Below, piece after piece: positions 47,684 through 64,000 of a stretch of 64,000 nucleotides of DNA. The stretch's first letter is position 1. Each line of letters begins with the position of its first letter. This DNA comes from Alphaproteobacteria bacterium (GTDB lineage Bacteria > Pseudomonadota > Alphaproteobacteria > UBA11136): positions 35,064 through 99,063 of the forward strand of contig JADHSZ010000001.1 of NCBI GenBank assembly GCA_016776635.1. Direction: 5' to 3'. A program made the translations under genes and the position numbers. Below the pieces are notes generated by a model. The model was given only the letters and a program-made list of their open reading frames with translations, had not been told where the DNA came from and searched no databases.

Positions 47684-47727
47684 GGAAGGTCTCCGACAGG
47701 GGCCAAATCCACGATGTTGCCGCAGCA

Positions 47728-48333
47728 TTACCCTGTTGTTTTGGTTGAAGCGCATGGAATCACGTATAAACAATTACTTATGTCATTTCTCGCGATCTGA
47801 CGTCCTATCTTCCGGTAAAACAAATTTGGCTTTTGATTAGATTTTAACACCTGTGCAAAACACGATGAGAATCCGCGCCGGTCTATTTCTTTAAGACATT
47901 TAAAAAAAGAAAAAAAACCTGCTTGAGACCCAATCGAAGTATCCGTATCCACCACCCAACTTAAAATTTCCGCCGATATATTGAGTTTCTTTATATCTCT
48001 GGGAATTAAAAAAACATTTTCTAACAGATGGGGAATGTCTCCTGGGTGAAGGAACGCCGACCCAACAATTCTAATCGATTTACGAAAATCCACCACCCTA
48101 CGTATTCGCTCCCGTGCTGCAGTCGAATTCGTGGTTGCCGAAATAAAGCCAGCCAGATTTCCATCTTCTGGGTTTTCATAAACAACGACGAAAAAATCGT
48201 CTTCTTTCCACAAATTTTCATATATTTTCTGTATGTGAATCAGGCCAAGGCGTCCATTAATGGTCCACTTCAATTCCTGGTAATGCAATTTGGAAATTGC
48301 AGGAATATCGTCAATATTTCCTAGGCGGACCAT
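47728..48333 (-). CDS. GNAT-family N-acetyltransferase-like protein (low-GC gene)
   Basis: 201 aa with a weak GNAT pattern (..VVVYENPEDGNLAGF.. and ..RRGFSSCF..). GC is near 40% against a backbone of about 65%. Confidence 0.45.
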   Translation of the reverse strand: MVRLGNIDDIPAISKLHYQELKWTINGRLGLIHIQKIYENLWKEDDFFVVVYENPEDGNLAGFISATTNSTAARERIRRVVDFRKSIRIVGSAFLHPGDIPHLLENVFLIPRDIKKLNISAEILSWVVDTDTSIGSQAGFFSFFKCLKEIDRRGFSSCFAQVLKSNQKPNLFYRKIGRQIARNDISNCLYVIPCASTKTTG

Positions 48334-48438
48334 TTTGGAGTCTCAATGACTGTTTGTTTGAGTGGTGGGAGATTACATTTTACGATTATCGGTAGATGGC
48401 AGTCACTCCCATTCCATAATCCGTTCATACAATGAGAA

Positions 48439-50289: not shown

Positions 50290-50478
50290 AGATTCTCCGG
50301 GGACTCGACCGGAACACGGGCCTTACATGGGGATACCTTTGCCTTCGAACTGGCTTCTGACTTTGCCAAAGTTTCTGGTAAGATGGCTCATCTCGTCGAA
50401 GCTTTATAGATAGCTCGGGCATATTAATTCTTTGTTTGCCACGGGATTTTCCAACTTAAAAGATGCAGGGGTTAAAAG

Positions 50479-51420
50479 ATGTCACGGGACGAGATACAGC
50501 TGATCAGCCTTATCTGCCCGGTTTACAACGAAGAAGCAGCGATTCCGATCTTTCTCAAACGCTTGCGCGAGTCTATCAAGCCTTTGAGAGACCGCTATGA
50601 TTTCGAACTAATTTTCACAAATGACGGCTCCACCGACCGCACGATGGAGTTGATCAAGGCAGAATGCGCCCACGACAAGATGGTGCAGCTTGTCACATTT
50701 TCCCGCAATTTCGGTTATCAAGCCTCGGTCTTATCGGGGCTGCAGCACGCTGCTGGCGAGGCAATGATAGTAATCGCTGTGGACTGCGAGGATCCTCCTG
50801 AACTGATCCCACGTTTCATCGAGGGTTGGGAACAAGGCCACGACATCGTTTATGGTCGCCGGGGCCCCCGGCCGGAGCCATGGTTGATCCAGCTCTGCCG
50901 CAAGGTGTTCTATCGGCTTATCCATCGTATCGCAGACAGCGACTTCGTTCCTTATATGGGCGAATTTGCATTGTTCACACGCAGGGTACGCGACGTGGTT
51001 CTCTCTAATAGGTCTACCTTTATGTTCATCCGTTCGGAAATTGCCTTCGCGGGGTTCTCTCGACTGGCGATATCGTATGCGCCACAGCCGCGGGTCGGCG
51101 GGAGAAGCCATTACAACATATGGGGAATGACCAAGTTCGCCATTGGCAATATTCTCACTTCCTCCACATTTCCTCTACGGTTGGCAGCCTATTTGGGAGT
51201 GCCGCTTTTATTTCTCAACTGGCTGGTGCCGGTTATCGGAGTGCTGACTGGTGAAAACCCCTTGCCGGTTTGGCTGATTGCCCTGGATTTGAACTTCCTG
51301 GTCCTGGCGGCAATTTTTGTGGCTGTATATGTGGCGCGCATCTACAAGGACGGCATGGACAAACCTAAGTTCATCATCGACTGGGATAATACCGAGCTAC
51401 ATGCTCGAAATAAGAAATAA
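50479..51420 (+). CDS. GT2 polyprenol-phosphate glycosyltransferase (GtrB/ArnC-like, two C-terminal TM helices)
   Basis: ISLICPVYNEEAAIP..TNDGSTDRT..VDCEDPPE (DxD-like). The C-terminal hydrophobic hairpin matches GtrB/ArnC topology. Confidence 0.75.
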   Translation: MSRDEIQLISLICPVYNEEAAIPIFLKRLRESIKPLRDRYDFELIFTNDGSTDRTMELIKAECAHDKMVQLVTFSRNFGYQASVLSGLQHAAGEAMIVIAVDCEDPPELIPRFIEGWEQGHDIVYGRRGPRPEPWLIQLCRKVFYRLIHRIADSDFVPYMGEFALFTRRVRDVVLSNRSTFMFIRSEIAFAGFSRLAISYAPQPRVGGRSHYNIWGMTKFAIGNILTSSTFPLRLAAYLGVPLLFLNWLVPVIGVLTGENPLPVWLIALDLNFLVLAAIFVAVYVARIYKDGMDKPKFIIDWDNTELHARNKK

Positions 51421-51445
51421 GCAGATAACCTGAGGCGCAGCTTCA

Positions 51446-52723
51446 TTGATGGTCAACAAATGCGATAACACTGAGTGTAAGCTGTGCGGCAGCACGGCTT
51501 TAACCCTTGTCATGGACTTTGGAGAGGTTGCACTGGCAGGGGGGTTCTTGAAGCCGGAAGATTTCCCGCAAGAGCAACTCTACCGGCTGCGGCTGTGCTT
51601 TTGCAGAGAGTGTTACCTGTTGCAAATCGTCGATGTCGTGCCGTCTGAAATTTTGTTCAAGAACTATTTCTATTTTTCATCCGCGATTGCGATGTTGCGG
51701 GACCACTTTGCCGATTACGCTACCGAAGTGACCTCCCGATTCCTGACGCCGGAAAATGCAACCGTGGTTGAGATAGGTTGCAACGACGGCGTGCTTCTTA
51801 AGCCGCTTGCTGAAAAAAATATTCAGACTCTTATTGGCATCGATCCGGCCACAAACATCGTCGAGTCTATCGATGACGCGGGAATCAATATTGTTAACGA
51901 TTTCTTCTGTGAAAAAGTCGCGGAAGAAATTCTTCAGGAATACGGTCCAGCACATTTAATTTGTGCGAACAACGTCTGTGCGCACAGCGTTGATTTTAAG
52001 AATATAACTAAAGGAATTTACAAGCTGTTGGACGAAGATGGAGTGTTTGTCTTCGAAGTTCATTATCTTGGAAAACTAATTGAAGAAATACAGTATGATA
52101 TGATTTACCATGAACATATTTATTATTATTCTATTCTTTCTCTGTCGAACCATTTTGACCGGTACGACATGGAAATATTTGACATAAAGCCAATTCCTAT
52201 CCACGCCGGATCAATGCGCTATTACGTACGCAAAAAGGGCCGGCTGCAGACCGAAGAGGTATCCGAGCGCGCCGTAAATCTGTTTGCCGAGGAAAAAGAG
52301 AAGGGCTACGACCGGGAAGAAACCTTCCTTAATTATGCGGCAAGGATATCGGCATCGAAACACCAGTTGATGACTCTTCTCGATCAGTTTACAGGGCAAG
52401 GAAAATCCGTGGCCGGCTATGGTGCTTCCGGTCGGGCCAATACGATTATCCAGTATTGTGGCATCGACCACCGCCACCTTGACTATATAATCGATGATGC
52501 GCCGGCCAAGTGGGGGTATTACACGCCGGGTGAGCATTTCGAGATTCGTTCGCGTCAAGTGTTGGAGGAGCAGGCACCGGACTATCTGTTGATCTTCGCC
52601 TGGAGTTATCTCGACACGGTTACCGAACATTGCCGTGATTTCATGTCCAACGGCGGGAGTATGATCGTGCCTCTGCCAGACGTCAGGGTTATATCTCACC
52701 CGGACGCCAATAGCGCCTTGTAG
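51446..52723 (+). CDS. Sugar C-methyltransferase (zinc-ribbon Methyltransf_13 N-terminus + class I MTase + C-methyltransferase C-terminal domain; TylCIII-like) #1
   Basis: CKLCGS..CRECYLLQ zinc ribbon, motif I VVEIGCNDG, and a C-terminal YGASGRANTIIQYCGI.. region typical of NDP-hexose 3-C-methyltransferases. Confidence 0.7.
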   Translation: MMVNKCDNTECKLCGSTALTLVMDFGEVALAGGFLKPEDFPQEQLYRLRLCFCRECYLLQIVDVVPSEILFKNYFYFSSAIAMLRDHFADYATEVTSRFLTPENATVVEIGCNDGVLLKPLAEKNIQTLIGIDPATNIVESIDDAGINIVNDFFCEKVAEEILQEYGPAHLICANNVCAHSVDFKNITKGIYKLLDEDGVFVFEVHYLGKLIEEIQYDMIYHEHIYYYSILSLSNHFDRYDMEIFDIKPIPIHAGSMRYYVRKKGRLQTEEVSERAVNLFAEEKEKGYDREETFLNYAARISASKHQLMTLLDQFTGQGKSVAGYGASGRANTIIQYCGIDHRHLDYIIDDAPAKWGYYTPGEHFEIRSRQVLEEQAPDYLLIFAWSYLDTVTEHCRDFMSNGGSMIVPLPDVRVISHPDANSAL

Positions 52724-52784
52724 CATACCGGCTCAGGATGACGGACGTGTCTTTAATCATCGCCACAATAGTACTCCGGTAGTC

Positions 52785-53675
52785 ATGGCGCGGATACTGG
52801 TCCTTGGCAGTACGGGGATGCTCGGATCGGCGGTGCTGGCGGTTTTGCGGGATGCTGGCCTTGATGTCGCCGGGGCGCAGCGACGGCCCCAGGCGGGCGG
52901 CTATACCTTCGACGCCGGCCAACCCGAAACTATGGATTGGCTGAAACAACCAGAGCTTGGAATTGACACCATTATTAACTGCGTTGGCGTGGGCAGACTC
53001 GGTAACAAGTCAAGCCGCGCGGATGCCGAACTGTCCACGGTCAACGCTGTTTTCCCTCGTCTGCTTCAGGAGGCCACCGCCGATAGTGGTGCGCGCGTCA
53101 TTCACATGTCCTCGGATGGTGTATTTGCCGGTCGTTCGGCGCCTTATTATGAAGATACGCCCGCGGATGCTCATGATGCCTATGGTCAGTCGAAACGGTT
53201 GGGGGAAATTGAAGCACCAAATTTCCTGTCGGTGCGTTGTTCAATCATCGGCTCGGACCCGGACAGGCGTGGCTATCTGCTGGACTGGTTCCTGTCGCAC
53301 GAACGTGGTGCGACCGTCACGGGGTTTATCGATCATATTTGGGACGGTGTGACCACGCTCCAGTTCGCCAGGCTATGCCGCGAGATTATTGAGAAGGATC
53401 GCTTCATGGCAATCCGGGAGAGGACTCCGGTGCTGCATTTCTCACCCAATCAACCGGTTTCAAAATACGATCTTTTGTGTTTGTTCGACCGGGTCTTCGC
53501 CAGCGGCATCCGGGTCGTGCCTGGTGAATCAGAGCGCCCGGTGACACGCATCCTCGAATCCTATTACCGTGATTTACTGCGTTGTTGCGGTATGCGCCAA
53601 CCACTGGAAGAGGCGATCCGCGAGCTTCGGGATTTCATGGATTCGCGCGTCCCCCATCCAGGGGCCACACGGTAG
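52785..53675 (+). CDS. NAD(P)-dependent sugar reductase/epimerase, dTDP-4-dehydrorhamnose reductase (RmlD)-like
   Basis: Rossmann motif ILVLGSTGMLGSAV and catalytic YGQSKRLGE (YxxxK), 296 aa. Confidence 0.7.
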   Translation: MARILVLGSTGMLGSAVLAVLRDAGLDVAGAQRRPQAGGYTFDAGQPETMDWLKQPELGIDTIINCVGVGRLGNKSSRADAELSTVNAVFPRLLQEATADSGARVIHMSSDGVFAGRSAPYYEDTPADAHDAYGQSKRLGEIEAPNFLSVRCSIIGSDPDRRGYLLDWFLSHERGATVTGFIDHIWDGVTTLQFARLCREIIEKDRFMAIRERTPVLHFSPNQPVSKYDLLCLFDRVFASGIRVVPGESERPVTRILESYYRDLLRCCGMRQPLEEAIRELRDFMDSRVPHPGATR

Positions 53676-53678
53676 AGG

Positions 53679-55694
53679 TTATGGCGTCTTCAGCGCGCGG
53701 GTTATTGCCCGGCGAAGCAGTTGGAGCACTGTGTACACCGCCGCGCAGGTGGCCATGATAATGAGCGGTTGTACTCCCGGTTCGTACCTTAAGCTCATAC
53801 CATTTGCCAACGACAATCCCGCCACCATTGATAATACCGACAGAGCCATCACCACAAAGAAAATTCTTTGGCGGGAAAAGAACAGAGCCCACCACGACAG
53901 CAAGGCGACCGCACCAACGGCATTTCTAAGAAAATTTCGCACCGTGGTCTGCATATTGTGAAGAATTTTCTCAAATAGTGGCGGGCGGCCAGCAAAATAA
54001 TCCCATTTGTATTCAGCAGGCATATTGGCTGGCAGCAAGCTGGCACATCCGGAACCATTAAACGTTGAGCGAAGGGCATAAGACGGAAATGAAGACAGTG
54101 GACCAAATATTCGGTGGGTTTCGAAAGGTATGGAGCCTGTTAACATCCTCAACGTTACGAGCGAGTCTATTCCAAAATAATTTAAGGCAGTGTGTGCAAA
54201 GACTATAAAGATATCCGGATTCCTGGCGATGGCTTCCATGGCCACGTCCCGCATCAATTTGTCTGCTTGCGAAATTCCTATTTTATTGTCCAACTCTCGC
54301 CACACATGGTCAAAGTATGTCATGTTCGGGCTCTGGAAGAAATTACGCGCTAGGTCTTTAGGGCGCCCATCAAACTGCCCAAATAACAGGTCATAAACGG
54401 TCACCACTTTGTCCGTCCCGGCGTCGTCGAAATGGGCTACTCCCGCCTCGCGGTTCGAGACCTCCATAGATAGAAGGGGCTCAAGTGCGCGATAGGGTTG
54501 TGGGTCTGAATATATCTCCACGAGTAACTCATGGAACCGGCGGCTCGCGGGTCCGTTGTCTGGCTGTATCAGCGATATCTGCGGTTTCTTCTCCTGAGAA
54601 GTTCCTAAAATATTGCGATACGCGAATAGTCGGCCTGTTCGTACGTAATAGGGCTGCAGGAATAATTGCCGCCCACTCCAGTTATTCAGGCCGCCGAACA
54701 GGCTAAGATCATTCAGGTGTACACTGCGTGCACCGGAATAGGTCGCGAACATGCCGAGAACGAGGGCCAGAGAAAAGATGAAATGCAGCCCCTGGCCTTT
54801 TTCTCCCCATAGCAGTTTTTCCCGCCTCATCAGCAGGAGGATGCCACCTCCCAGAATAAAGGGAAGCAACAGCGCCTCGCCTCGCGTCATAGCTGCGAAG
54901 AAGCTGAAGAGTATCGTCAAATAGATGAACTTATGTTGTTTCGTGAAAAAATAACGCGAGAAGAAATATATGCTGCACACCACGAGAAACATGAAGAACT
55001 GTTGGGGAAGCATTGCCTTTACATAAGCGAAGGGAAGCGACGAGACGATTAAAAGCCCGGCTGCTGACAATCCAAGAATCCTGTTGATAGGAGAGAGCGC
55101 GCGATAGGCCATAAGTGGACTTAAAATTCCGATAATGGCGTGGGCAAACACTGTTCCGGCAAAGGTGTTGAAAAAAGTTTGACCTGTCAGGACGAGGAAT
55201 ACGGGGAATCCCGGCCCCCTCTGATATGAATAAGCCCCAGGCTGTCCCGATAAGGACTCTGCATAATTAAAAAACGTCAAAGCGTCGCATTCGAAGACGC
55301 CCCGGAGAGCGACCAGGTGGAAAGCTTGGAATAAAATCGCCGTAGTCAGCAGAATTTTCTGGTCGCGACGGTTGAAAGAATTCGCTGCAGAGGGCGAGGC
55401 GAAATAGGCCTGGAGCCGTTGGGACTTATCAGCCACCCAAGGCCAGCCGTTTATCAGCCGCATGATATTCTTCCGAGCCAGCATCAGCCCGGCCAGTCCT
55501 GAGAAAATGCCCAGAGAGAAGATTTCTGAGCGCGACAAGTCGGCCAGGCGGTAAAAAAGAAACTCCTCTTTCAAGCCAAGCCCAAGATAAGGGGCCGCAA
55601 CGGCGGCGAGAATGGCGCCGCATCCGAAGACAAGAAATAGAAAGGAGAAAACAGGGATAATCCTGTGCGGCCTGGGAAAATAATTCATGATCAA
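53679..55694 (-). CDS. Large polytopic membrane protein, putative GT-C-fold glycosyltransferase (ArnT/PMT/Gtr-like)
   Basis: 671 aa with at least 11 hydrophobic segments and loops. It is surrounded by polyprenol-phosphate GT2 genes. The family assignment is by architecture and context only. Confidence 0.4.
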   Translation of the reverse strand: MIMNYFPRPHRIIPVFSFLFLVFGCGAILAAVAAPYLGLGLKEEFLFYRLADLSRSEIFSLGIFSGLAGLMLARKNIMRLINGWPWVADKSQRLQAYFASPSAANSFNRRDQKILLTTAILFQAFHLVALRGVFECDALTFFNYAESLSGQPGAYSYQRGPGFPVFLVLTGQTFFNTFAGTVFAHAIIGILSPLMAYRALSPINRILGLSAAGLLIVSSLPFAYVKAMLPQQFFMFLVVCSIYFFSRYFFTKQHKFIYLTILFSFFAAMTRGEALLLPFILGGGILLLMRREKLLWGEKGQGLHFIFSLALVLGMFATYSGARSVHLNDLSLFGGLNNWSGRQLFLQPYYVRTGRLFAYRNILGTSQEKKPQISLIQPDNGPASRRFHELLVEIYSDPQPYRALEPLLSMEVSNREAGVAHFDDAGTDKVVTVYDLLFGQFDGRPKDLARNFFQSPNMTYFDHVWRELDNKIGISQADKLMRDVAMEAIARNPDIFIVFAHTALNYFGIDSLVTLRMLTGSIPFETHRIFGPLSSFPSYALRSTFNGSGCASLLPANMPAEYKWDYFAGRPPLFEKILHNMQTTVRNFLRNAVGAVALLSWWALFFSRQRIFFVVMALSVLSMVAGLSLANGMSLRYEPGVQPLIIMATCAAVYTVLQLLRRAITRALKTP

Positions 55695-56004
55695 AAATCC
55701 GATGGCGGATTGTCCCTAATGTCCTATGGCCGTCAACTTATACTATGGGGCGCCTCTAAAAAATATCTATCGCCCAGTCTTGATCGGGTGGAATCATGCT
55801 ATTATGGCGCTCATGGCACTTTGATCAGAGGTTGAGGGATATGGGCCAACCGGCACCTGCGGGTGTGATTGAGGCGTTGTTGGAAAACTTTGACGGCTAC
55901 CTTGAAAAATAAGGCTATCTGGCGATGAGTGGATAGATTATAGACACATCGATTGTCGCGGTTTCTAGACAGTATAACAGCCGTTAACTAGGTTAAGTTC
56001 TGCA

Positions 56005-56757
56005 TTGATAAAAAAGGCGGGTGAAAGGAGCGCAGGACCAATAGTATCTCAGACAAACGTCAGTGTGATCTTGCCGACGTATAACGAACAGGGGAACATT
56101 GTTCCACTTGTTCGCCAGCTCAAGGGCCTGCTCGCTGACACACCAAAAGAAATTATTGTGGTGGACGACGACAGTCCGGATGGCACTGCGCAACAGGTGC
56201 GCGATGCCTTCGCCGAGGACGGAGAGGTCAGGCTGATCGTTCGGTATGAAAACCGCGGGCTTGCCAATTCAATCCGCGAGGGCATTGAAAATGCTTCCGG
56301 CGATGTAATTATCGTCATGGACTCCGACGGGAACCACCGTCCGGAGGACGTTGTCATGCTGCTTCACGTCGCGAGCAATGTCGATATTGTGGTCGGATCG
56401 CGGTTCATATACGGCGGCGGCATGTCAAATCTGTTTCACTATTACTTGAGCTACCTGTTCAATATTTTTATCCGTCTCGTAACCGGTTCCCGACTCGATG
56501 ACAACTTGAGCGGTTTTTTCTCAATTCACAGGGAAAAGCTGTTCGCCTTGGATTTCGACAGAATATTTTGGGGTTACGGTGATTATTTCTTTCGTCTCCT
56601 CCTGCTGTGCCAGAGACATGGGTTCCGGTTTGTCGAGGTGCCGGTGTTTTACGGGGAGCGTAAGCACGACACTTCAAAGACGAGTTTTTTCCTCGTGTTC
56701 GTACGCTACACCAGCGAGGTTCTCAGGCTTATACTGCTTCGTTTGCTGAATAAGTGA
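56005..56757 (+). CDS. GT2 polyprenol-phosphate glycosyltransferase (DPM1-like, soluble type)
   Basis: VSVILPTYNEQGNIVPLV..IIVVDDDSPDGT..VMDSDGNH, 250 aa. Non-ATG (TTG) start inferred. Confidence 0.7.
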   Translation: MIKKAGERSAGPIVSQTNVSVILPTYNEQGNIVPLVRQLKGLLADTPKEIIVVDDDSPDGTAQQVRDAFAEDGEVRLIVRYENRGLANSIREGIENASGDVIIVMDSDGNHRPEDVVMLLHVASNVDIVVGSRFIYGGGMSNLFHYYLSYLFNIFIRLVTGSRLDDNLSGFFSIHREKLFALDFDRIFWGYGDYFFRLLLLCQRHGFRFVEVPVFYGERKHDTSKTSFFLVFVRYTSEVLRLILLRLLNK

Positions 56758-56767
56758 TAAAGACTCG

Positions 56768-58003
56768 ATGCTCTACCATGACATAAAAGGCTGCCGTGTT
56801 TGTGGTGGCACACACCTTACTGAAGTGTTGAATTTGGGCCGACACACTCTGTCCGGGAGGTTTCCCAAACAGGGCGACCCCGACCCATTGCACGCTCCGT
56901 TGGAACTGGTTCACTGCCACGAATGCGGGCTTCTGCAGCTCAGGCATACCGTCGTACAGAGTGAGCTCTATACCGATCACTACGGCTACCGTTCCGGTAT
57001 TAACGAAGCCATGGTCCGTCACCTTACGGGTATAAAGGACCGCGCTGTAGCCATGGCCAAGCCGAAGGCGGGAGACATAGTCCTGGATATCGGCAGTAAC
57101 GATGGCACTATGCTGAAGACTTATGCGACGCCCGGCTTGGTGCGAATAGGGATAGATCCGATCCTTGGCCATTTTCGGGACCACTATCCCGTTGATGCCA
57201 TTACCGTTGAAAATTATTTCTCCGCCACAACGTTTCAGACAGTGGGAAATGGCCGCAAGGCAAAGGTGATCACATCAATAGCCATGTTCTACGATCTTGA
57301 TGCCCCCAATGCCTTCGTTACGGACATCCGGGAGATTCTGCATCCAGAGGGGATCTGGATTTTTGAGTTGAGTTATATGCCGAAAATGCTCGAGCAAAAT
57401 GCATTTGATACTATCTGTCACGAGCACCTGGAATATTACGGCCTTCATCAGGTCGAGTGTCTGATTTCGGCTCACGGACTGCGCATTTTCGACGTCGATT
57501 TTAATGAAACCAATGGGGGCAGTTTCCAGGTTTGCGTCTGTCACGTTGACGGACCATATCCTTCAGAACAGACGAAGATCGACACTGTGTTGAGAAACGA
57601 AGCAGAGCAGGACTTTAACTCGCTTACACCTTATCATGTCTTCAATAAAGGGATTGAGGCGATTCGTGAGCGCCTGGTTGAGGTCATTCGTGACGAGAAG
57701 GCGAAGGGCAAGAAAATCTACGCCTACGGAGCGTCAACCAAGGGTAACACCATTCTCCAGTATTGTGGCCTCGACAACAAAGATATAGTGGCGGCGGCGG
57801 ACCGAAACCCGGAAAAATGGGGCTGCCGGACGCCGGGAACGGGCATTCCAATCATCTCGGAGGAAGAGGCCCGGAATGCGAATCCAGATTATTTTCTGGT
57901 CCTGCCCTGGCATTTCCGTGAGGGTTTTCTGGAGCGGGAAAAGAATTTTATCCAAAAAGGCGGCCACTTTATTTTTCCACTGCCGAATGTGGAGGTTTAT
58001 TGA
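56768..58003 (+). CDS. Sugar C-methyltransferase (zinc-ribbon + class I MTase + C-MT domain) #2, paralogue of 51446..52723
   Basis: CRVCGG..CHECGLLQ zinc ribbon, motif I IVLDIGSNDG, and a C-terminal YGASTKGNTILQYCGL.. colinear with 51446..52723. Confidence 0.7.
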   Translation: MLYHDIKGCRVCGGTHLTEVLNLGRHTLSGRFPKQGDPDPLHAPLELVHCHECGLLQLRHTVVQSELYTDHYGYRSGINEAMVRHLTGIKDRAVAMAKPKAGDIVLDIGSNDGTMLKTYATPGLVRIGIDPILGHFRDHYPVDAITVENYFSATTFQTVGNGRKAKVITSIAMFYDLDAPNAFVTDIREILHPEGIWIFELSYMPKMLEQNAFDTICHEHLEYYGLHQVECLISAHGLRIFDVDFNETNGGSFQVCVCHVDGPYPSEQTKIDTVLRNEAEQDFNSLTPYHVFNKGIEAIRERLVEVIRDEKAKGKKIYAYGASTKGNTILQYCGLDNKDIVAAADRNPEKWGCRTPGTGIPIISEEEARNANPDYFLVLPWHFREGFLEREKNFIQKGGHFIFPLPNVEVY

Positions 58004-58018
58004 AACGTTGGCTAAGAA

Positions 58019-59143
58019 ATGAAATCCGTAAAGGGTAATTCCATTCCCTGGGCGAAGCCGACCCTGTTTGGCGACGAGGAACGCTATCTGCTTGACGCCC
58101 TGAAATCCACCTGGATTTCAGGGGGGCCGTATGTGGAGCGCCTGGAGCGGATCATTCCTGACCACCTCGGTGTACGTCACGGCATCGCCGTCTCTAACGG
58201 AACATCGGCATTGCAGCTTGGATTGCTGGGCCTCGGTATTGGCCCGGGTGATGAGGTGATCGTTCCTGGATATACCTTTGTCGCCGCCATTAACATGGTT
58301 CTGGCCGTGGGTGCCACGCCCGTCTTCGCCGATATCAATCCAGACAGCTGGGATATTGATGTAAAAGAGGTTGAGCGCGCCATCACCAGAAATACCCGCG
58401 CCGTGATCCCCGTTCATCTGTATGGAAATGTGGCTGATATGCCAGCCCTCATGGAATTGGCGCGGGTCCGTGGTCTGGCCGTTATCGAAGACGCTGCGGA
58501 ATCTGCGTTCTCCCGCCTTGGGGGAAAGTTCACCGGCACCTTCGGGGATATGGGTACTCTGAGCTTTCAGGCAACAAAGACCCTCACCACAGGCGAGGGC
58601 GGAATGGTACTTACGGACGATTCCGACCTCTACCACCGCATGTTGACCATCCGCGACCACGGCATGCCTAAAGACAAAAGATACTGGCATGACGTGGTGG
58701 GCTTCAACTTCAGATTGACCAATTTGCAGGCTGCCCTTGGTTGTGCCCAGTTTGAACAACTTGACTCAATTCTGACTGAGCGGCGACGTGTCTATGAACG
58801 ATATGGCTCGGCTCTGGCCCATATACCGGGAATCGAGATGCAGCATTTTTCGGAAGACCTGGAGCCTGTCGTCTGGACGGTTGCCGTCCGGCTGCGGTCC
58901 GATCACGTCACAATCAGTCGGGATGATGTGATGCAGAGTCTGCTTGAAAAGGGAATCGAGACCCGCCCCGGTTTCTATACCCCAAGCGACATGCCGCTTT
59001 ATGACTGTCCGTTGCTGCCGGTATCTCAGCAGGTAAGTGAAAATATTTTCTGTCTGCCGGCCTATCCAACGCTTAAAGATTCCGAGGTCGATCACGTTTG
59101 CGAAATGCTGAAGCAGATTCTTGAGAGCAGCCATGCGGTTTAA
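58019..59143 (+). CDS. DegT/DnrJ/EryC1/StrS-family PLP-dependent sugar aminotransferase #2
   Basis: PLP-lysine in LSFQATKTLTTGEGG and a conserved N-terminus ..WISGGPYVERLE.. Confidence 0.85.
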   Translation: MKSVKGNSIPWAKPTLFGDEERYLLDALKSTWISGGPYVERLERIIPDHLGVRHGIAVSNGTSALQLGLLGLGIGPGDEVIVPGYTFVAAINMVLAVGATPVFADINPDSWDIDVKEVERAITRNTRAVIPVHLYGNVADMPALMELARVRGLAVIEDAAESAFSRLGGKFTGTFGDMGTLSFQATKTLTTGEGGMVLTDDSDLYHRMLTIRDHGMPKDKRYWHDVVGFNFRLTNLQAALGCAQFEQLDSILTERRRVYERYGSALAHIPGIEMQHFSEDLEPVVWTVAVRLRSDHVTISRDDVMQSLLEKGIETRPGFYTPSDMPLYDCPLLPVSQQVSENIFCLPAYPTLKDSEVDHVCEMLKQILESSHAV

Positions 59144-59930
59144 CCAAAATTTTCTTCACCACTATTTGAAGCAGGCCCCCATGGCCTTGGCGATTGAACG
59201 TTCTCTGGAATGCGAGCTTCTTTCCCAACAGAGTTTCGTGCGTCCGATTCTGGACTTGGGCTGTGGCGACGGCCTGTTTGCCAGCATTCTTTTTGCCGAG
59301 AATGTCGATACGGGTATAGATTCCAGTCAAGAAGAAGTAAAACAAGCGCTACGCTGCGCGATATACAATGAGCTGATTACATGCAGTGGAGATAAAATCC
59401 CGAAGGATGATGAATCGTATCATACTGTATTCAGCAACAGCGTCCTTGAGCACATATCGGATCTAGATTCCGTCCTGCGTGAGGTCAACCGGTTACTTGC
59501 TCCGGGTGGGTGCTTCTACGTCACTATTCCAACAGACAGGTTCGAAACTTATTCTGCCGGGGCGCGTTTCTTCCGTGGCTTTGGACTTGGTGGCCTTGCA
59601 AAGCACTACGGCGCTCTCTACAACCGGTTTTGGCGCCATTATAACGTTCATGACAGGGCAGGTTGGCAGAAACGGTTCCAAATGTCGGGATTCAAAGTAG
59701 TCGATGTACACAGCTATGACCCCCCCGCGATCTGCCTGATCAACGATCTTTTAACGCCGCTCGCTTTTCCGTCATTTCTATTTAAAAAAACTCTACACCG
59801 TTGGGTTGCGTCTGCGACTTTGCGACGACTTTATTTGGGCGCGGTCTACAGCTTTGCGCAGTGGGCAACGTGGCGATTCGGCTCAGGCGAAGGGGGCGGT
59901 CTGATTTTATTTCATTTGACCAAGCCATAG
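59121..59930 (+). CDS. Class I SAM-dependent methyltransferase
   Basis: Motif I ILDLGCGDGLFA and post-II LLAPGGCFYV. Its 3' end is the template of the direct repeat at 59901-59995. Confidence 0.75.
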   Translation: MRAAMRFNQNFLHHYLKQAPMALAIERSLECELLSQQSFVRPILDLGCGDGLFASILFAENVDTGIDSSQEEVKQALRCAIYNELITCSGDKIPKDDESYHTVFSNSVLEHISDLDSVLREVNRLLAPGGCFYVTIPTDRFETYSAGARFFRGFGLGGLAKHYGALYNRFWRHYNVHDRAGWQKRFQMSGFKVVDVHSYDPPAICLINDLLTPLAFPSFLFKKTLHRWVASATLRRLYLGAVYSFAQWATWRFGSGEGGGLILFHLTKP

Positions 59931-59995
59931 CTGGCTAACAGCCTCCAAACTGTCCGAACAAGGGAGAGTTTCTCGGATATTGAAAGGTGTTATGA
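59901..59995. repeat. Left copy of an imperfect direct repeat of about 95 bp flanking the low-GC cassette
   Basis: ctgattttatttcatttgaccaagccatagctggctaacagcctccaaactgtccgaacaagggagagtttctcggatattgaaaggtgttatg, aligned by eye to 62085-62178 at about 78% identity. Confidence 0.7.
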
Positions 59996-60016
59996 TAAAA
60001 ATTATTTAATATATTT

Positions 60017-61057
60017 ATGAATAATAGTATTAATACAGCAATTAGAGTAATTAGGTCTCTAATATTTAATGAAAAGCCCAATTACGTAATTGCCTTTATC
60101 GATGGCAGGTGCAACATGCACTGCTCATTCTGTTGTCACGCGGCAAAGGTGGTCAGGGCATCGCCTGAAATGTCCGCGGAACAATGGGGTTATATATTTG
60201 AAGGCTGCAAATCCCTTTTACAACTTACTATCACCGGCGGAGAACCATTTGTAAGAAATGATGTGAAGGAAGTAATAGAATCCATAATAAGATCTTCAGG
60301 CGTCCCAAGAGTAAGCATCAGGACGAATGGATATTATAAAGAACGAACTAAAGAAGCTGTCGTCTATCTGCTGGAAGAATTTCCCCAAACGAACTTTACG
60401 CTCTGTATATCGCTGGACGGTCCTGAAGAAATCCATGATCAGGTAAGGAATTTTGAAGGGGGGTATGCAAAAGCTCTTGAAACCATTGATGAATTGGTGG
60501 AATCAAGAGATACGAATAATAATTTTATTCTAAGGCTGGATTCCGTATTAACGGATGATAACAGGGAATATATGGAAGATTTTCTGGTGGAAACGGAATC
60601 ATGGCCGATTGATTACCATGGAATAATTTTGGTCAGGGATGTTCCGTCAAAGATTCAAGAGGGACTAAAGGGTTTATATTCAAAACTTTCAGATCAGCAA
60701 GCGAATCGTGCATCCAAAAAATGGTCAAATGCGATTGATGGTAAGCTCTTTCGCGCCCTCAGAATCGACACACTGGATAAAATTGGAAACGATGAGGCCA
60801 TAACGCCGTGTCACGCTGGCGGCCGGCTTGTGGAAGTTTTCCCCGATGGCGTTGTCAGGGGGTGCGAGATGGAAAAGCTCTGGGGTATTTCTGAAATCGG
60901 AAACGTGAATTCCGATAAAATAAGACTGATTGATGTTATGAAAAGTCGGGAAGCCGAAGATTTCAGAAAGTTTGCGCAAACCTGCACCTGTACATTTGAA
61001 TGCGCCAATGCGGTTAATGCCGCATATAACATATCAAAGTGGAAAAACTTAATATAA
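60017..61057 (+). CDS. Radical SAM protein with a Cys-rich C-terminal region (possible SPASM/twitch-type auxiliary cluster), low-GC
   Basis: CX3CX2C motif in DGRCNMHCSFCCH. The C-terminus has CHAGG..GCEME..CTCTFEC. GC is about 38%. Confidence 0.7.
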   Translation: MNNSINTAIRVIRSLIFNEKPNYVIAFIDGRCNMHCSFCCHAAKVVRASPEMSAEQWGYIFEGCKSLLQLTITGGEPFVRNDVKEVIESIIRSSGVPRVSIRTNGYYKERTKEAVVYLLEEFPQTNFTLCISLDGPEEIHDQVRNFEGGYAKALETIDELVESRDTNNNFILRLDSVLTDDNREYMEDFLVETESWPIDYHGIILVRDVPSKIQEGLKGLYSKLSDQQANRASKKWSNAIDGKLFRALRIDTLDKIGNDEAITPCHAGGRLVEVFPDGVVRGCEMEKLWGISEIGNVNSDKIRLIDVMKSREAEDFRKFAQTCTCTFECANAVNAAYNISKWKNLI

Positions 61058-61069
61058 TGCGTATTAATT

Positions 61070-62086
61070 ATGTCAGTTAATATAAATGGCAAGGCATCGA
61101 TTGTAATTCCGGTATATAACGATAAGTATAATCTGAAAACCTGCCTTGAAGTCATAGAACCTGTTGCGATCAGACATAATTGGGAAGTCATCGTTGTTGA
61201 TGACGCGAGCACTGATGGTTCGACTCAGGGCTGGGATGAAACGCATGTCAGGCTGGTAAAATTAGATAAAAACAAAGGCGTTTCCAATGCGAGGAATATG
61301 GGCGCAGAGCTGTCTAATAATGAAATAATTGTGTTTGTCGACGCAGACATCCTCCCCAACAAAGATTGCTTGGAGAACCTGGTTTCCTTTCTTCTTGAAA
61401 GAAATGACATCCATTCCGTGGGTGCATGGGAGGTTCCCGTTAATTTAAATACGGAAAGCTGGAGTTCAAATTTTGTCTGCCTGAGGTCTTGCTGGGGATT
61501 CGAATGGAAGGAAAATGAAAACGAAAGATTTTTCTCCTGTTTTAAATCCGAATGCAGTGCCATCAGAAAAGAAGTGTTTATGGAAGTCGGAAAATTCGAT
61601 TTAAAATTCAGCGGTGCGGGGATGGAGGAATTTCAACTGGGCCACAGGCTTGAAGAGTCTGGGAAAAAGAATGTCGTTATTAAAAATGCCACTTTTGAGC
61701 ACTATTACAAACCTCTACTGCCCAGATGCAGAAATCTCATCCATAGGACCGCCAGGTGGGTTCCGTTGCTGCTCGGCAGAAGGAAACTTGAATCTCAGGG
61801 GGCTGTTGGTACTTCCGGTGCAGCAGTCTCCGTATTTTTATCAATAGTTTTAGCATCTTCTTTAATATTAAGCCTGATATCTCAAATATTTTTGTACGCA
61901 TCATTGGTGGCTATAATCATACAATTAATTGTCGAAATGAAATTTCTGAAATTCAGCCACAGAATATTCGGTATAAAAATGTTGTTTTTCGCAATCCCCG
62001 CAACTCAATTAATGAATCTATCCATTTTTATCGGTTTTTTACTTGGTGTTCTGAAATTATTGGACCGTGAACAAGCGGCGGCCTGA
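61070..62086 (+). CDS. GT2 glycosyltransferase with C-terminal TM helices, low-GC
   Basis: ASIVIPVYNDKYNLKTCLE..VIVVDDASTDGS..FVDADI (DxD), with C-terminal hydrophobic segments. Confidence 0.75.
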   Translation: MSVNINGKASIVIPVYNDKYNLKTCLEVIEPVAIRHNWEVIVVDDASTDGSTQGWDETHVRLVKLDKNKGVSNARNMGAELSNNEIIVFVDADILPNKDCLENLVSFLLERNDIHSVGAWEVPVNLNTESWSSNFVCLRSCWGFEWKENENERFFSCFKSECSAIRKEVFMEVGKFDLKFSGAGMEEFQLGHRLEESGKKNVVIKNATFEHYYKPLLPRCRNLIHRTARWVPLLLGRRKLESQGAVGTSGAAVSVFLSIVLASSLILSLISQIFLYASLVAIIIQLIVEMKFLKFSHRIFGIKMLFFAIPATQLMNLSIFIGFLLGVLKLLDREQAAA

Positions 62087-62178
62087 TCTTGTTTCATTGG
62101 ATCAAGCCATAGCCGGTCGACAGCTTCCAAGCTGCCCGAATGGGGGAGAGTTTTTGATCCTGAAAAGTATAATGTATA
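62085..62178. repeat. Right copy of the imperfect direct repeat of about 95 bp
   Basis: ctgatcttgtttcattggatcaagccatagccggtcgacagcttccaagctgcccgaatgggggagagtttttgatcctgaaaagtataatg. It begins at the stop codon of the GT2 gene. Confidence 0.7.
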
Positions 62179-62182
62179 CAAA

Positions 62183-62207
62183 TCCCCACCTAATCCCCAC
62201 CTAATCA
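62183..62207. repeat. Short tandem repeat (ccccacctaat x2)
   Basis: atccccacctaatccccacctaatc. Confidence 0.6.
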
Positions 62208-62291
62208 GAAACCGTTCTCTGATAAGGGGGGGCGTGGAATCGAGTAGACTCGGTAGGGTCTGTTTCTGAAGACGGGTTCAGAGGTGGTCAA

Positions 62292-63875
62292 ATGAGCACT
62301 AATAAGAGAACGCTGGGGGAAATTACGAGCCGCGATATGACGGTAGCGCTCGTCCGGGGCCCCGTGGCGATGGCTACGACTTTCATTAGCAACCTCGCGA
62401 CCCCGAGCATTGCCTTTGCCTATTTGGCGGGATCCGCGCGCGCCCATGGATATGAGTGCCACATCGTTGATGCCCTTGCCCTCGGGCCTGACTCTTGCTG
62501 GCAGGGCGACAGTTACTCCGGATTCTTTTTTCAGGGCCTTGGTGTCGAGGAAACGATCGACAGAATCCCGCCCGACACGTCGGTGATAGGCTTCTCCATT
62601 AAGTTCTCCGCAGAGTGGCCATTCCAACGCGATTTCATCACGGAAGTCAGGAAGCGCTTCCCTCACGCGCTATTCGTGGCGGGCGGCGAGCACATCACTG
62701 CCCTCACCGAATTCAGTCTTCGTGACTGCCCTGCTCTTGATGTCTGCGTCCGGGGTGAGGGCGAACATACGTTTGTCGAGGTTTTGGAGGCTCATCGCCA
62801 GGGGAAGGATATGGGGGCCACGGTGGGGCATATCGGCTACCGTGCGGCCGATGGTGAGATTCACAGTAACGATTCGTTACCCCGCATCCGGGAGATAGAT
62901 ACCATTCCGTGGCCCCATTGGCCCGAAGGTTACCTGGAAGGCTTCTGGCAATCCGGCCAGGCCTTTGGCATCCAGTCCCCCCGCGATATTCCAATGCTGG
63001 CCACTCGCGGCTGCCCGTACCAATGTACCTTTTGTTCCAGTCCTCAGATGTGGACGACGCGCTACATAATGCGCGAGCCCAACGACGTGGTGGCCGAGAT
63101 CAAGCATTACGTTGAGCGCTTCGATATCACAGCGGTCCAGTTCTACGACCTTACGGCGCTCATGAAAAAGCAATGGACGCTTGAATTTTGCCAAGGGCTT
63201 CTGGACAGCGGCATCAGCTTGAAGTGGTCACTTCCAAGTGGGACACGGAGCGAGGTTCTCGACGAAGAAGTAATCAGAATGATGCAGAAGACCGGGTGCA
63301 ATTTCATTTCCTACGCCCCCGAGAGCGGTGACGAGACCACACTCAAGGCCATTAAGAAAAGGATAGATTTGGACCGGATGAACGAGTCTATCGCGGTGGC
63401 AATACGGCTGGGACTTAAGGTGAGGACGAATCTCGTAATAGGATTTCCCCACGAGACACGACGCCAGATTCTGCGGACGCTCTGCTACGGCCTCTCCCTC
63501 TCATGGCGCGGTGTCGACGATGTACTGCTCTCGCTCTTCGCGCCTTATCCAGGTTCCGAGCTTTTCGACGACCTCGTCGCACGCCAGGTTATCTCGATAG
63601 ACGATGACTATTTTCTGAGCCTTAATTCACGGTGGGGGGTTAACAAACTCCGGATTAATCCTCGAGTGACGCCGTGGGAGCTGGCCGTCTATCGGCTGGG
63701 TGGGATGCTGCTCAATTACATGGTGGGGTACGTACGCTACCCCTCCAGGATATGGCGCACGTTTCGCAATTTGCTGTTTCGTGACGAGTCATCCACCAAC
63801 TTCGAGCACTTTCTTAAAGTCTCATTCCAGCGATGGATTCCAAGCAGGGCACCGACGGCGACATCGAAACGGTAG
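62292..63875 (+). CDS. Cobalamin(B12)-binding radical SAM protein (class B rSAM) #3
   Basis: N-terminal B12-binding domain (..IAFAYLAGSARAHGYECHIVDAL..) and CX3CX2C in ATRGCPYQCTFCSS. Confidence 0.8.
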   Translation: MSTNKRTLGEITSRDMTVALVRGPVAMATTFISNLATPSIAFAYLAGSARAHGYECHIVDALALGPDSCWQGDSYSGFFFQGLGVEETIDRIPPDTSVIGFSIKFSAEWPFQRDFITEVRKRFPHALFVAGGEHITALTEFSLRDCPALDVCVRGEGEHTFVEVLEAHRQGKDMGATVGHIGYRAADGEIHSNDSLPRIREIDTIPWPHWPEGYLEGFWQSGQAFGIQSPRDIPMLATRGCPYQCTFCSSPQMWTTRYIMREPNDVVAEIKHYVERFDITAVQFYDLTALMKKQWTLEFCQGLLDSGISLKWSLPSGTRSEVLDEEVIRMMQKTGCNFISYAPESGDETTLKAIKKRIDLDRMNESIAVAIRLGLKVRTNLVIGFPHETRRQILRTLCYGLSLSWRGVDDVLLSLFAPYPGSELFDDLVARQVISIDDDYFLSLNSRWGVNKLRINPRVTPWELAVYRLGGMLLNYMVGYVRYPSRIWRTFRNLLFRDESSTNFEHFLKVSFQRWIPSRAPTATSKR

Positions 63876-64000
63876 AGGATGCGTAGATCAACGCGTGTTC
63901 AGCATATCCCGCTTACAAAGACCCGTCTTTTTCAAAAACCCCTTCAAATGCCCTTTCATGGTTTCAGCGCATTTTGGCTTTTTGCGCCCAACTTTTGGAA

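What the first reader, a model, noticed from the sequence alone, without database searches (positions are those of the whole stretch)
59901..62178. Low-GC two-gene cassette (radical SAM + GT2) bracketed by imperfect direct repeats of about 95 bp copied from the 3' end of the upstream methyltransferase gene
The segment 60017-62086 is about 38% GC against a backbone of about 65%. It encodes a radical SAM/Cys-rich protein and a membrane GT2. It is flanked by two copies of a sequence (about 95 bp, about 78% identical). The left copy is the genuine 3' end of the methyltransferase gene 59121-59930 (..HLTKP stop). The right copy starts exactly at the GT2 stop codon and still reads ..LFHWIKP stop in the same relative frame. 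This looks like the footprint of a cassette insertion or replacement by recombination at the end of the methyltransferase gene. Gene-cassette shuffling of this kind occurs in O-antigen and glycosylation islands. A short tandem repeat (ccccacctaat x2) follows the right copy.
Basis: seen in the sequence. Interest (0 to 1): 0.65.

Follow-up and report, generated by a model that had tools for sequence, protein, structure and literature searches.

The report
Shuffled sugar-gene cassette with orphan gene-end
A foreign, low-GC pair of genes (a radical SAM enzyme and a membrane glycosyltransferase) sits in a surface-sugar gene cluster of a marine alphaproteobacterium, followed by a leftover copy of the neighbouring methyltransferase gene's end; this is a clear but ordinary footprint of recombination that shuffles sugar-gene modules between bacteria.

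Summary
Segments 59895-60002 and 62077-62183 are a direct repeat: 77% identity over 109 nt, E = 2e-17, with only two copies in the window. They bracket a two-gene module (radical SAM/SPASM-like 60017-61057; membrane GT2 61070-62086) of 40.7% GC. The flanks are 50-56% GC, not 65%. The left copy is the real 3' end of the methyltransferase (MT) gene plus about 70 nt of spacer. The right copy still reads GGLILFHWIKP-stop.

Related metagenome contigs support the recombination-footprint reading:
- One relative has DegT-MT and a single copy, with no module.
- Another has DegT-module-MT remnant, with no MT gene.
- A third lineage has the module at a different locus, carrying fossil 3' ends of DegT and MT. 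There it is bracketed by a 174- or 65-nt duplication of the end of an asparagine-synthase gene, and its right copy is a mosaic with strain-specific crossover points.

The GT2 stop codon lies at the same place inside the MT remnant in every copy, so that joint formed once. No integrase, att core, attC-like fold, terminal inverted repeat or Rfam match is present.

Best reading: an orphaned gene end left by homologous-plus-illegitimate recombination, or by a single-crossover insertion. This is a new member of a known kind, of moderate interest.

The parts
59133..59930 (+). Class I SAM-dependent methyltransferase (MT) gene. The ATG at 59133 overlaps the DegT stop. Alternative starts are TTG 59121 and ATG 59181.
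   Evidence: Pfam Methyltransf_11/23/25. Homologues of 80-83% aa identity end ...GGGLILFHLTKP, and more distant ones keep a GG(L/I)xFFxLxK C-terminus, so this end is native to the MT family.
59895..60002 (+). Left repeat copy. T = last 11 codons plus TAG of MT (59895-59930). U = 72 nt of post-stop spacer (59931-60002).
   Evidence: blastn 77% over 109 nt, E 1.8e-17. Alignments. Translation.
60003..60016 (+). AT-rich 14-nt joint between the repeat and the rSAM start codon. Homology to other copies of the module begins at 60005-60013.
   Evidence: blastn of window against L015 and L016. Alignment A4.
60017..61057 (+). Radical SAM enzyme, 346 aa, with a CX3CX2C motif and a C-terminal Cys cluster (SPASM/twitch-like).
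   Evidence: Pfam Radical_SAM 50 bits; SPASM 20.4 bits against a cut-off of 21.5. Invariant C32/C36/C39 and C265/C283/C323/C325/C329. AF2 pLDDT 84.6; best folds SkfB, anSME, BlsE, DesII at TM about 0.6. GC 41.5%, GC3 0.40.
61070..62086 (+). Membrane-anchored family-2 glycosyltransferase, 338 aa: a GT-A domain plus four C-terminal helices.
   Evidence: Pfam Glycos_transf_2 93 bits. AF2 pLDDT 89.6 with helices 249-337; best solved match PcManGT 6yv7, TM 0.55-0.58. GC 41.0%. Identical to MBL6933865.1, from a MAG labelled Alphaproteobacteria bacterium.
62077..62183 (+). Right repeat copy. T' = orphaned MT 3' end reading GGLILFHWIKP* (62077-62112). U' = 71 nt of spacer (62113-62183). The GT2 stop codon (62084-62086) lies inside T'.
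   Evidence: T' also follows the GT2 stop at the same position in L015, L016 and L025.
62181..62206 (+). Tandem 11-mer AATCCCCACCT x2.4, at the point where homology to L025 ends.
   Evidence: TRF. Alignment A5.
62184..63949 (+). A further inserted segment carrying the B12-binding radical SAM gene (62292-63875). It is absent in L025 and is flanked by a 5-nt CAAAT on each side.
   Evidence: L025 joins U' directly to the 3' end of the convergent gene. Pfam B12-binding plus Radical_SAM.
63956..64000 (-). 3' end of the convergent 684-aa membrane protein gene Y, cut by the window end. It is the native downstream neighbour of the MT gene in relatives.
   Evidence: L001 gene 13940-15994 on the minus strand. 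Homologous to the gene after MT in L005 and after the remnant in L015 and L025.

Best explanation
The rSAM-GT2 pair is a horizontally shuffled accessory module of a surface-glycan gene cluster. The cluster looks Arn-like; it encodes DegT, a YdjC-formyltransferase fusion, GtrB/ArnC-like GT2s, a GT-C/PMT_2-like protein, C-methyltransferases and a B12-rSAM.

The right-hand repeat is an orphan. It consists of the last 11 codons, the stop codon and the downstream spacer of a methyltransferase allele that was displaced when the module was joined to the end of an MT gene. The joint between the GT2 end and that remnant formed once (shown). The module has since moved or been exchanged between genomes together with fragments of its former neighbours (shown).

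The window's arrangement is MT, T-U, module, T'-U'. I infer that it arose when DNA carrying the module plus its remnant recombined with a chromosome that had an intact MT gene. One crossover would have been in the shared downstream sequence. The other would have been an illegitimate joint just upstream of the rSAM start codon. This is homology-facilitated illegitimate recombination. Single-crossover insertion of a circularised fragment gives the same product. No dedicated recombinase is involved.

I also infer function. The two genes are intact and under purifying selection. They probably add one variable step, a radical-SAM modification plus a glycosyl transfer at the membrane, to the glycan that the cluster builds.
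For: Repeat and composition:
- The repeat is significant and unique in the window.
- GC and GC3 of the module are far below its flanks here and in L015 and L016.

The left copy is native to MT:
- The MT family C-terminus is conserved.

Presence/absence polymorphism:
- L005-L008 have DegT-MT-Y with a single copy.
- L015 has DegT-module-T' remnant followed by sequence 71% identical to that downstream of MT in L005 (E 5e-22).
- L025 has module-T'U'-Y.
- The GT2 stop sits at the same position inside T' in the window, L015, L016 and L025.

Second locus (L016, L018-L023, L032-L041):
- The order is AsnB, R1, truncated GT2_260, a 63-nt DegT 3' remnant, module, T' remnant, R2, B12-rSAM.
- There are two different left joints. 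One has a 174-nt R1. The other has a 65-nt R1 with AGCGGC microhomology.
- A further variant has the complete GT2_260 upstream (L020, L036, L041).
- R2 copies are mosaics of an AT-rich version and an R1-like version, with three different switch points.

No recombinase gene:
- No integrase or transposase family among the precomputed Pfam hits for genes called within 10 kb either side; several large ORFs there have no Pfam hit.

The module is functional:
- Both genes have the same length as their homologues, and codon-position identities are 0.96 / 0.96 / 0.82.
- The pair is also adjacent at 44-48% aa identity in a distant genome.

A known mechanism with the same signature is described in PMC5361080 and PMC3240628.
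Against: - No empty-site allele (MT-T-U-Y) was found in the same spacer lineage as the window. The only module-free relative has a different post-stop spacer.
- The window's own left joint shows no diagnostic microhomology.
- The four U-type copies (winL, winR, L010L, L025R) are roughly equidistant, 61-70% in U. The order of events is therefore not resolved: MT plus module first with later MT loss, or module replacing MT first.
- Support for an allelic origin of T' over in-situ decay is weak. Three of five differences are synonymous, and T is 86% identical against 73% for U, with Fisher p = 0.10.
- The mechanism is inferred from end products only.
- No biochemical function is established. No NCBIfam model reaches its cut-off.
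Confidence: 0.75

Rival explanations
1. In-situ duplication. A roughly 105-nt stretch (MT end plus spacer) was duplicated in this genome, for example by slippage or repair synthesis during a single illegitimate insertion of the module, and the two copies then diverged in place. Arrangements without MT (L015) or without the module (L005) would be later deletions.
For: L010/L029, whose MT is only 82% identical at the amino-acid level, share the same left junction, so the arrangement is old. The copies are about as diverged as the lineages. Deletion between direct repeats would readily give a single-copy state.
Against: The remnant after the module in L015 is followed by that lineage's own spacer type, not U. 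The orphan still reads a full C-terminus with stop, and three of five changes are synonymous. At the second locus the right copy exists in an AT-rich, donor-like form with variable crossover points. That fits incoming DNA rather than local duplication.
Confidence: 0.15
2. The repeats are attachment sites of a site-specific recombination system: an integron-like cassette, or a decayed integrative element that targets the 3' end of the MT gene and restores it.
For: Integrative elements typically insert in gene 3' ends and duplicate them. The module is compositionally foreign.
Against: The segment holds only two biosynthetic genes. No integrase or transposase family appears among the precomputed Pfam hits for genes called within 10 kb. 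The longest identical run between the copies is 11 nt. There is no significant fold or inverted repeat in either copy (z = -1.65 and 0.31). There is no tRNA. At the second locus the duplicated sequence is unrelated and comes in two lengths.
Confidence: 0.03
3. The repeated spacer is a functional regulatory element (terminator, promoter or leader) kept in front of each of two radical SAM genes. On this view its similarity reflects selection rather than history.
For: Each copy lies upstream of a radical SAM gene (60017 and 62292). The first ~15 nt after the stop codon (TAGCCGGTCGAC...) are fairly conserved across lineages.
Against: There is no Rfam match at E <= 1. No promoter-like or terminator-like site lies on the + strand in either copy, and there is no fold signal. 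The repeat includes 36 nt of MT coding sequence in frame with its stop. In L025 the copy is followed by the end of a convergent gene, not by a radical SAM gene.
Confidence: 0.05
4. Assembly or binning artefact: a chimeric contig joining DNA of a low-GC organism to this genome.
For: The source is a metagenome-assembled genome, and the GC shift is sharp.
Against: The same arrangement is recovered in independent assemblies with different assemblers and samples: both junctions identical in L001 and L002, the left junction also in L003. Repeats only 77% identical cannot mislead an assembler. The related lineage L010/L029 shows the same left junction in two samples.
Confidence: 0.01

Closest known systems
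Orphaned 3' ends and displaced modules in Rhs, CDI and T6SS effector-immunity arrays, attributed to homology-facilitated illegitimate recombination (Kirchberger et al. 2017, PMC5361080, and references therein)
   Same: A new module enters next to a conserved gene, and the old 3' end is pushed downstream and kept as a fossil. Successive events leave nested remnants. No integrase is involved. One side relies on homology and the other is illegitimate.
   Different: Here the genes are glycan-biosynthesis enzymes, not toxin/immunity pairs. The upstream gene stays whole because a second, complete 3' end is present. The orphan is tiny (36 nt of coding sequence plus spacer), not a toxin domain with an immunity gene.
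Homology-facilitated illegitimate recombination in transformation and conjugation (de Vries & Wackernagel 2002; Prudhomme et al. 2002; Meier & Wackernagel 2003, as cited in PMC5361080; E. coli conjugation, PMC3240628)
   Same: The predicted product matches: foreign DNA anchored by one homologous flank, with an illegitimate joint at short microhomology on the other side. AGCGGC is seen at the second-locus joint. Crossover points in the anchor vary between strains.
   Different: Those are laboratory events, observed directly. Here only old natural end products are seen, and a single-crossover insertion of a circular fragment cannot be told apart.
Module exchange in O-antigen, capsule and other glycosylation loci (general knowledge, not tested here)
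   Same: Low-GC biosynthetic genes sit inside a conserved glycan cluster. There is presence/absence variation between relatives, and gene remnants lie at the junctions.
   Different: Classic cases exchange whole loci through conserved flanking genes such as galF/gnd. Here a two-gene unit moves within and between loci, carrying fossils of three former neighbours (DegT, MT, AsnB).
Integron gene cassettes
   Same: A small, promoter-less gene unit is found in several contexts.
   Different: There is no attC-like imperfect palindrome, no integron integrase, and no shared recombination core. The flanking repeats differ between loci and derive from the local upstream gene.

Membership tests
Orphan-3'-end displacement by homologous plus illegitimate recombination (HFIR-type footprint) | A fragment of the 3' end of the upstream gene lies downstream of the inserted DNA, in the same orientation | tested here: met
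   T' reads GGLILFHWIKP* against the MT end GGLILFHLTKP*. Repeat E = 1.8e-17.
Orphan-3'-end displacement by homologous plus illegitimate recombination (HFIR-type footprint) | Relatives differ in presence or absence of the inserted DNA at the same site | tested here: met
   L005-L008 have MT only. L015 has the module only, plus the remnant. The window and L010/L029 have both. No empty site was found in the window's own spacer lineage.
Orphan-3'-end displacement by homologous plus illegitimate recombination (HFIR-type footprint) | One junction lies in homologous sequence with variable crossover points; the other is illegitimate, at short microhomology | tested here: inconclusive
   Met at the second locus: R2 is a mosaic with three switch points, and the left joints lie inside two genes with AGCGGC microhomology. 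Not resolvable at the window's own junctions.
Orphan-3'-end displacement by homologous plus illegitimate recombination (HFIR-type footprint) | The inserted DNA is compositionally foreign | tested here: met
   Module GC 40.7% and GC3 0.40-0.43, against 50-56% and 0.53-0.68 for the flanks. The same contrast holds in L015 and L016.
Integron cassette | attC site (imperfect inverted repeat that folds as a hairpin) at the cassette end | tested here: not met
   No local inverted repeat. Fold z-scores are -1.65 and 0.31. No Rfam hit.
Integron cassette | Integron integrase and attI nearby | tested here: not met
   No integrase family among the precomputed Pfam hits for genes called within 10 kb either side; several large ORFs there have no Pfam hit. 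The rest of the window was not scanned protein by protein.
Integrative element with attL/attR at a gene 3' end | An integrase gene inside the element and an identical core sequence in both att sites | tested here: not met
   There are only two biosynthetic genes between the repeats. The longest identical run is 11 nt.
Insertion sequence / composite transposon / MITE | Terminal inverted repeats, a short target-site duplication, and a transposase | tested here: not met
   There are no terminal inverted repeats at 60003-62076. The flanking repeat is 105 nt, direct and imperfect. There is no transposase.
Radical SAM superfamily, SPASM/twitch subgroup | CX3CX2C cluster motif and the radical SAM core | tested here: met
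   C32-N-M-H-C36-S-F-C39 is invariant in 29 homologues. PF04055 scores 50.3 bits against a cut-off of 29.5.
Radical SAM superfamily, SPASM/twitch subgroup | C-terminal auxiliary Fe-S domain (7-Cys SPASM or partial twitch) | tested here: inconclusive
   PF13186 scores 20.4 bits, just below its 21.5 cut-off. There are five invariant C-terminal Cys. The fold is closest to SkfB, anSME, BlsE and DesII at TM about 0.6. No NCBIfam equivalog reaches its cut-off.
GT2 polyprenyl-phosphate glycosyltransferases (DPMS / GtrB / ArnC type) | GT-A domain with a DXD motif followed by C-terminal transmembrane helices | tested here: met
   PF00535 scores 93 bits. D91 and D93 are invariant. The AF2 model has a GT-A domain plus helices 249-337. 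The best solved match is the membrane GT2 PcManGT, with DPMS, GtrB and ArnC among sequence hits to the N-terminal 110 residues only.
GT2 polyprenyl-phosphate glycosyltransferases (DPMS / GtrB / ArnC type) | Transfers a sugar from a nucleotide sugar to polyprenyl phosphate | not testable with these tools
   TM-scores of 0.55-0.58 and sub-threshold NCBIfam hits (MftF, EpsD, ArnC) do not fix the acceptor.

The most novel reading that the evidence does not exclude
The rSAM-GT2 pair may behave as a recombinase-free mobile module. On this reading its collected fossil gene ends (DegT, MT and AsnB remnants) act as portable homology arms that let host recombination re-insert it next to homologous genes in unrelated genomes. 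Contigs carrying near-identical copies are labelled Alphaproteobacteria and Nitrospinaceae, and the closest further rSAM relatives are abundant in low-GC marine bacteria such as Pelagibacter. If so, the remnants would be selected as part of the module's means of spread rather than being passive scars.
Probability: 0.12. Interest if true: 0.6.

Novelty: new member of a known kind. Interest (0 to 1): 0.35.

Why it matters
This is a clean natural example of how small biosynthetic modules are shuffled within and between surface-glycan loci of uncultured marine bacteria without any mobile-element machinery.

The nested remnants give a readable history of at least three former genomic contexts. The second locus shows strain-level variation in crossover points, which is rarely visible in natural data.

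In practice, it flags a conserved but uncharacterised rSAM-GT2 enzyme pair as a variable step in cell-surface glycan synthesis, possibly relevant to phage or grazer evasion.

It does not reveal a new mechanism or a new class of element.

Tried and rejected
- **Rfam scan** of 59700-62500 at E <= 1: nothing.
- **Folding** of both copies and the L010 copy: no signal.
- **Promoter/terminator scan:** counts at or below shuffled expectation, and no + strand site in either copy.
- **tRNA scan** of the window: none.
- **Genome-contig scan** with the GT2: only remote hits of 29-34% identity to the N-terminal domain, so no species-representative genome carries the module.
- **Exact look-up of the 269-aa MT ORF** failed, because gene callers use a later start.
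- **NCBIfam:** no protein of the module or its neighbours reaches a curated cut-off, so no equivalog name can be given.
- **Sliding identity** of the window against L005 and L010 across DegT-MT: no recombination breakpoint inside MT.
- **L009/P0001:** its MT is identical to the window for 1123 nt and then diverges inside T, 33 nt before the contig end. The tail matches nothing held, so it could be an alternative junction or a chimera.
- **Pfam on the 32-aa fragment** that interrupts the rSAM gene in L010: no hit. tblastn against plasmids then identified it as the end of an IS5-family transposase.
- **Allelic origin versus in-situ decay of T':** synonymous/non-synonymous counts and the T-versus-U identity give only p about 0.1.
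- **Structure searches** narrowed neither enzyme's substrate.
Full report
**1. What is in the window**

The window carries a run of + strand genes:

| Coordinates | Gene |
|---|---|
| 56005-56757 | GtrB/ArnC-like GT2 |
| 56768-58003 | sugar C-methyltransferase (Methyltransf_13/14) |
| 58019-59143 | DegT-type aminotransferase |
| 59133-59930 | class I SAM methyltransferase (MT) |
| 60017-61057 | radical SAM protein |
| 61070-62086 | GT2 with a hydrophobic C-terminus |
| 62292-63875 | B12-binding radical SAM protein |

Upstream lie a YdjC-formyltransferase fusion, another ArnC/PgfS-like GT2, a second C-methyltransferase, an RmlD-like reductase and a 671-aa PMT_2-like membrane protein. This is a cell-surface glycan cluster with an Arn-like logic. 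No protein reaches an NCBIfam equivalog cut-off. The GT2 is identical to MBL6933865.1 from a MAG labelled Alphaproteobacteria bacterium, on a contig of up to 519 kb.

**2. The observation**

Segments 59895-60002 and 62077-62183 align at 77% identity over 109 columns, with E = 1.8e-17 against the whole 64-kb window and no third copy. The ungapped core is 81% identical over 77 nt.

The left copy is the last 11 codons and TAG of the MT gene (GGLILFHLTKP*), followed by 72 nt of spacer. The right copy reads GGLILFHWIKP* in the same register. It begins 7 nt before the GT2 stop codon, so the GT2 ends inside it.

The enclosed 2.07 kb is 40.7% GC (GC3 0.40-0.43). Its neighbours are 50-56% GC (GC3 0.53-0.68) and the window as a whole is 56.5%.

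The 11-mer tandem repeat after the right copy is confirmed.

Both repeat copies are base-identical in two independent assemblies (L001, L002), and the left copy also in a third (L003), so this is not an assembly artefact.

**3. Which copy is native**

MT homologues from many bacteria end with GG(L/I)xFFxLxK-like sequences, and the closest ones end ...GGGLILFHLTKP. The motif therefore belongs to the MT family, and the copy after the GT2 is derived from an MT gene, not the reverse.

**4. Relatives at the same locus**

Four arrangements were recovered. Y is the convergent 675/684-aa membrane protein gene downstream.

| State | Contigs | Arrangement |
|---|---|---|
| A | L005-L008 (MT 80% aa identity) | C-MT, B12-rSAM, GNAT, DegT, MT, then 55 nt, then Y. 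One copy, no module. |
| B | L015 | DegT, then 9 nt, rSAM, GT2 (89% DNA identity to the window's module), then a decayed MT 3' remnant |
| C | window; L010 and L029 (MT 82% aa) | MT, T-U, then the rSAM start, with the same left joint as the window |
| B or C | L025 | rSAM, GT2, T'-U', then directly the end of Y |

In L015 the remnant is followed by sequence 71% identical (E 5e-22) to what follows MT in L005, including the end of Y.

In all four module copies the GT2 stop codon sits at the same position inside the remnant. That joint was therefore made once and has been inherited or transferred with the module.

The post-stop spacer comes in two flavours. The U type is found in winL, winR, L010L and L025R. 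The other type is found in L005 and L015R. In each lineage the remnant after the module is followed by that lineage's own flavour.

**5. A second locus with the same architecture**

In L016 and sixteen further contigs from many marine samples, the module (83-86% identical to the window's) lies between an asparagine-synthase gene and a B12-rSAM gene.

To its left it carries the 3' 246-290 bp of a GtrB-like GT2 and a 63-nt remnant of a DegT 3' end that matches L015. To its right it carries a further-decayed MT remnant. These are fossils of earlier contexts.

The whole insert is bracketed by a direct duplication. This consists of the last 40 nt of AsnB, the 57-nt spacer and the first 77 nt of the B12-rSAM gene.

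Three structural variants exist:
- a 174-nt left copy;
- a 65-nt left copy joined 45 nt further into the truncated GT2, at an AGCGGC microhomology;
- contigs with the complete GT2 gene upstream instead.

The right copy is a mosaic. In L018 it is an AT-rich version (42% GC, 80% identical to the left copy) for about 95 nt and then identical to the left copy. In L039 the switch comes about 35 nt earlier. In the other contigs almost the whole copy is left-copy-like.

Variable switch points within a homologous flank, together with a joint inside two unrelated genes on the other side, are what homologous-plus-illegitimate recombination produces.

**6. Age and selection**

Third-codon-position identity of the module between lineages is 0.72-0.82. 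For the flanking DegT and MT genes among the window, L005 and L010 it is 0.66-0.74. The two window copies differ by 14% in T and 27% in U, and the four U-type copies are about equidistant. The event is therefore old, roughly as old as the split between the window and L010 lineages.

First and second codon positions of both module genes are 92-96% conserved between the window and L015. Gene lengths are constant. The pair is also adjacent at 44-48% aa identity in a distant genome, next to a SPASM rSAM, sulfatase-family and PMT genes. The module is a functional two-gene unit. In the L010/L029 lineage, however, its rSAM gene is broken by an IS5-family element.

**7. Mechanism**

The following are absent:
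- any integrase or transposase family among the precomputed Pfam hits within 10 kb of the module;
- any shared core longer than 11 nt between the copies;
- any inverted repeat or significant fold;
- any Rfam family;
- any tRNA.

The duplicated sequence is different at the two loci and is always the end of the local upstream gene. Site-specific systems are therefore excluded as far as these tools can test.

The best-supported mechanism is recombination by the host's own machinery. DNA carrying the module and its downstream remnant pairs with the resident chromosome through the shared downstream sequence. The other end joins illegitimately just beyond the resident gene's end. The resident gene stays intact, and a second, diverged copy of its end is left behind the module. 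This is homology-facilitated illegitimate recombination, as invoked for orphan 3' ends in Rhs, CDI and T6SS arrays (PMC5361080; PMC3240628). Single-crossover insertion of a circularised fragment gives the same structure and cannot be excluded.

Shown: the orphan nature of the right copy, the polymorphism between relatives, the nested fossils, and the mosaic flank at the second locus.

Inferred: the exact pathway and the order of states at the window's locus.

**8. Function of the module**

The rSAM has the CX3CX2C motif and five invariant C-terminal cysteines. Its model (pLDDT 84.6) is closest to SPASM/twitch enzymes, including peptide maturases (SkfB, anSME) and sugar-modifying enzymes (BlsE, DesII, BtrN), at TM about 0.6.

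The GT2 model (pLDDT 89.6) is a GT-A domain followed by four long C-terminal helices. Its best solved match is the membrane mannosyltransferase PcManGT.

From the gene context, I infer that the pair adds a variable decoration step to a lipid-linked or surface glycan. The substrate is unknown.

**9. Verdict**

There is one refinement: the right copy is an orphan that travels with the module, not a fresh copy of this genome's MT end.

This is a well-documented new instance of a known process, recombinational module shuffling in glycan loci. It has unusually legible fossils and an independent second locus. It is not a new kind of element.

Interest is moderate (0.35). The more novel reading, that the remnants serve as portable homology arms promoting spread across distant taxa, is possible but unsupported beyond uncertain bin labels.

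Noticed in passing
window 62184-63949 (gene 62292-63875): The B12-binding radical SAM gene lies in a 1766-bp segment that is absent from relative L025, where the right repeat abuts the end of the convergent gene. The segment is flanked by a 5-nt CAAAT (62179-62183 and 63945-63949) and starts at the 11-mer tandem repeat AATCCCCACCT x2.4. It looks like a second, independent insertion by illegitimate recombination.
   Followed up: partly
L010:1187-1282 and L029:1187-1239: In the lineage whose MT is 82% identical, the module's rSAM gene is interrupted after about 214 nt. The interrupting sequence encodes, on the minus strand, the C-terminus of an IS5-family transposase (75-80% identical to annotated alphaproteobacterial IS5 transposases). 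The same break is seen in two samples.
   Followed up: yes
L009:1124-1156 (window equivalent 59918): A low-coverage contig from the same study is 100% identical to the window for 1123 nt and then diverges inside the MT 3' end, 13 nt before the stop, giving a different C-terminus (…LILFHFYGKNFTA). It could be another junction in the same hot spot or an assembly chimera. The 33-nt tail matches nothing held.
   Followed up: partly
L016:1416-1589 and 4141-4314; L018, L039, L032-L041: At a second locus the same module is bracketed by a 174-nt or 65-nt duplication of the AsnB 3' end, spacer and B12-rSAM 5' end. The right copy is a mosaic of an AT-rich and a resident-like version, with at least three switch points among strains.
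   Followed up: yes
L005:1634-3241: In the module-free relative, the B12-rSAM gene of the cluster is itself only 38% GC (GC3 0.37), while its neighbours are 52-57% GC. This is another compositionally foreign gene in the same kind of locus.
   Followed up: no
proteins P0137, P0150; P0242: Taxon labels are inconsistent. Near-identical L016-type GT2 proteins include one from a Nitrospinaceae-labelled MAG, and the L005-type MT cluster includes a Latescibacterota-labelled fragment. These are short contigs, so binning is doubtful. rSAM homologues of 50-57% identity are very abundant in marine metagenomes, and one is labelled Candidatus Pelagibacter. That hints at a low-GC marine origin for the module.
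   Followed up: no
L031:1347-1409: In a more distant relative (MT 68% identical), the sequence right after the MT stop reads ...RRWIVERAFGWVGRC in one frame. From memory this resembles the conserved motif of IS5-type transposases. It was not tested.
   Followed up: no
window 47000-64000: GC falls from about 59% (1-47000) to about 50% across the whole glycan cluster (48000-60000). The cluster as a whole is compositionally distinct from the rest of the window, and the module is a still lower-GC island within it.
   Followed up: partly
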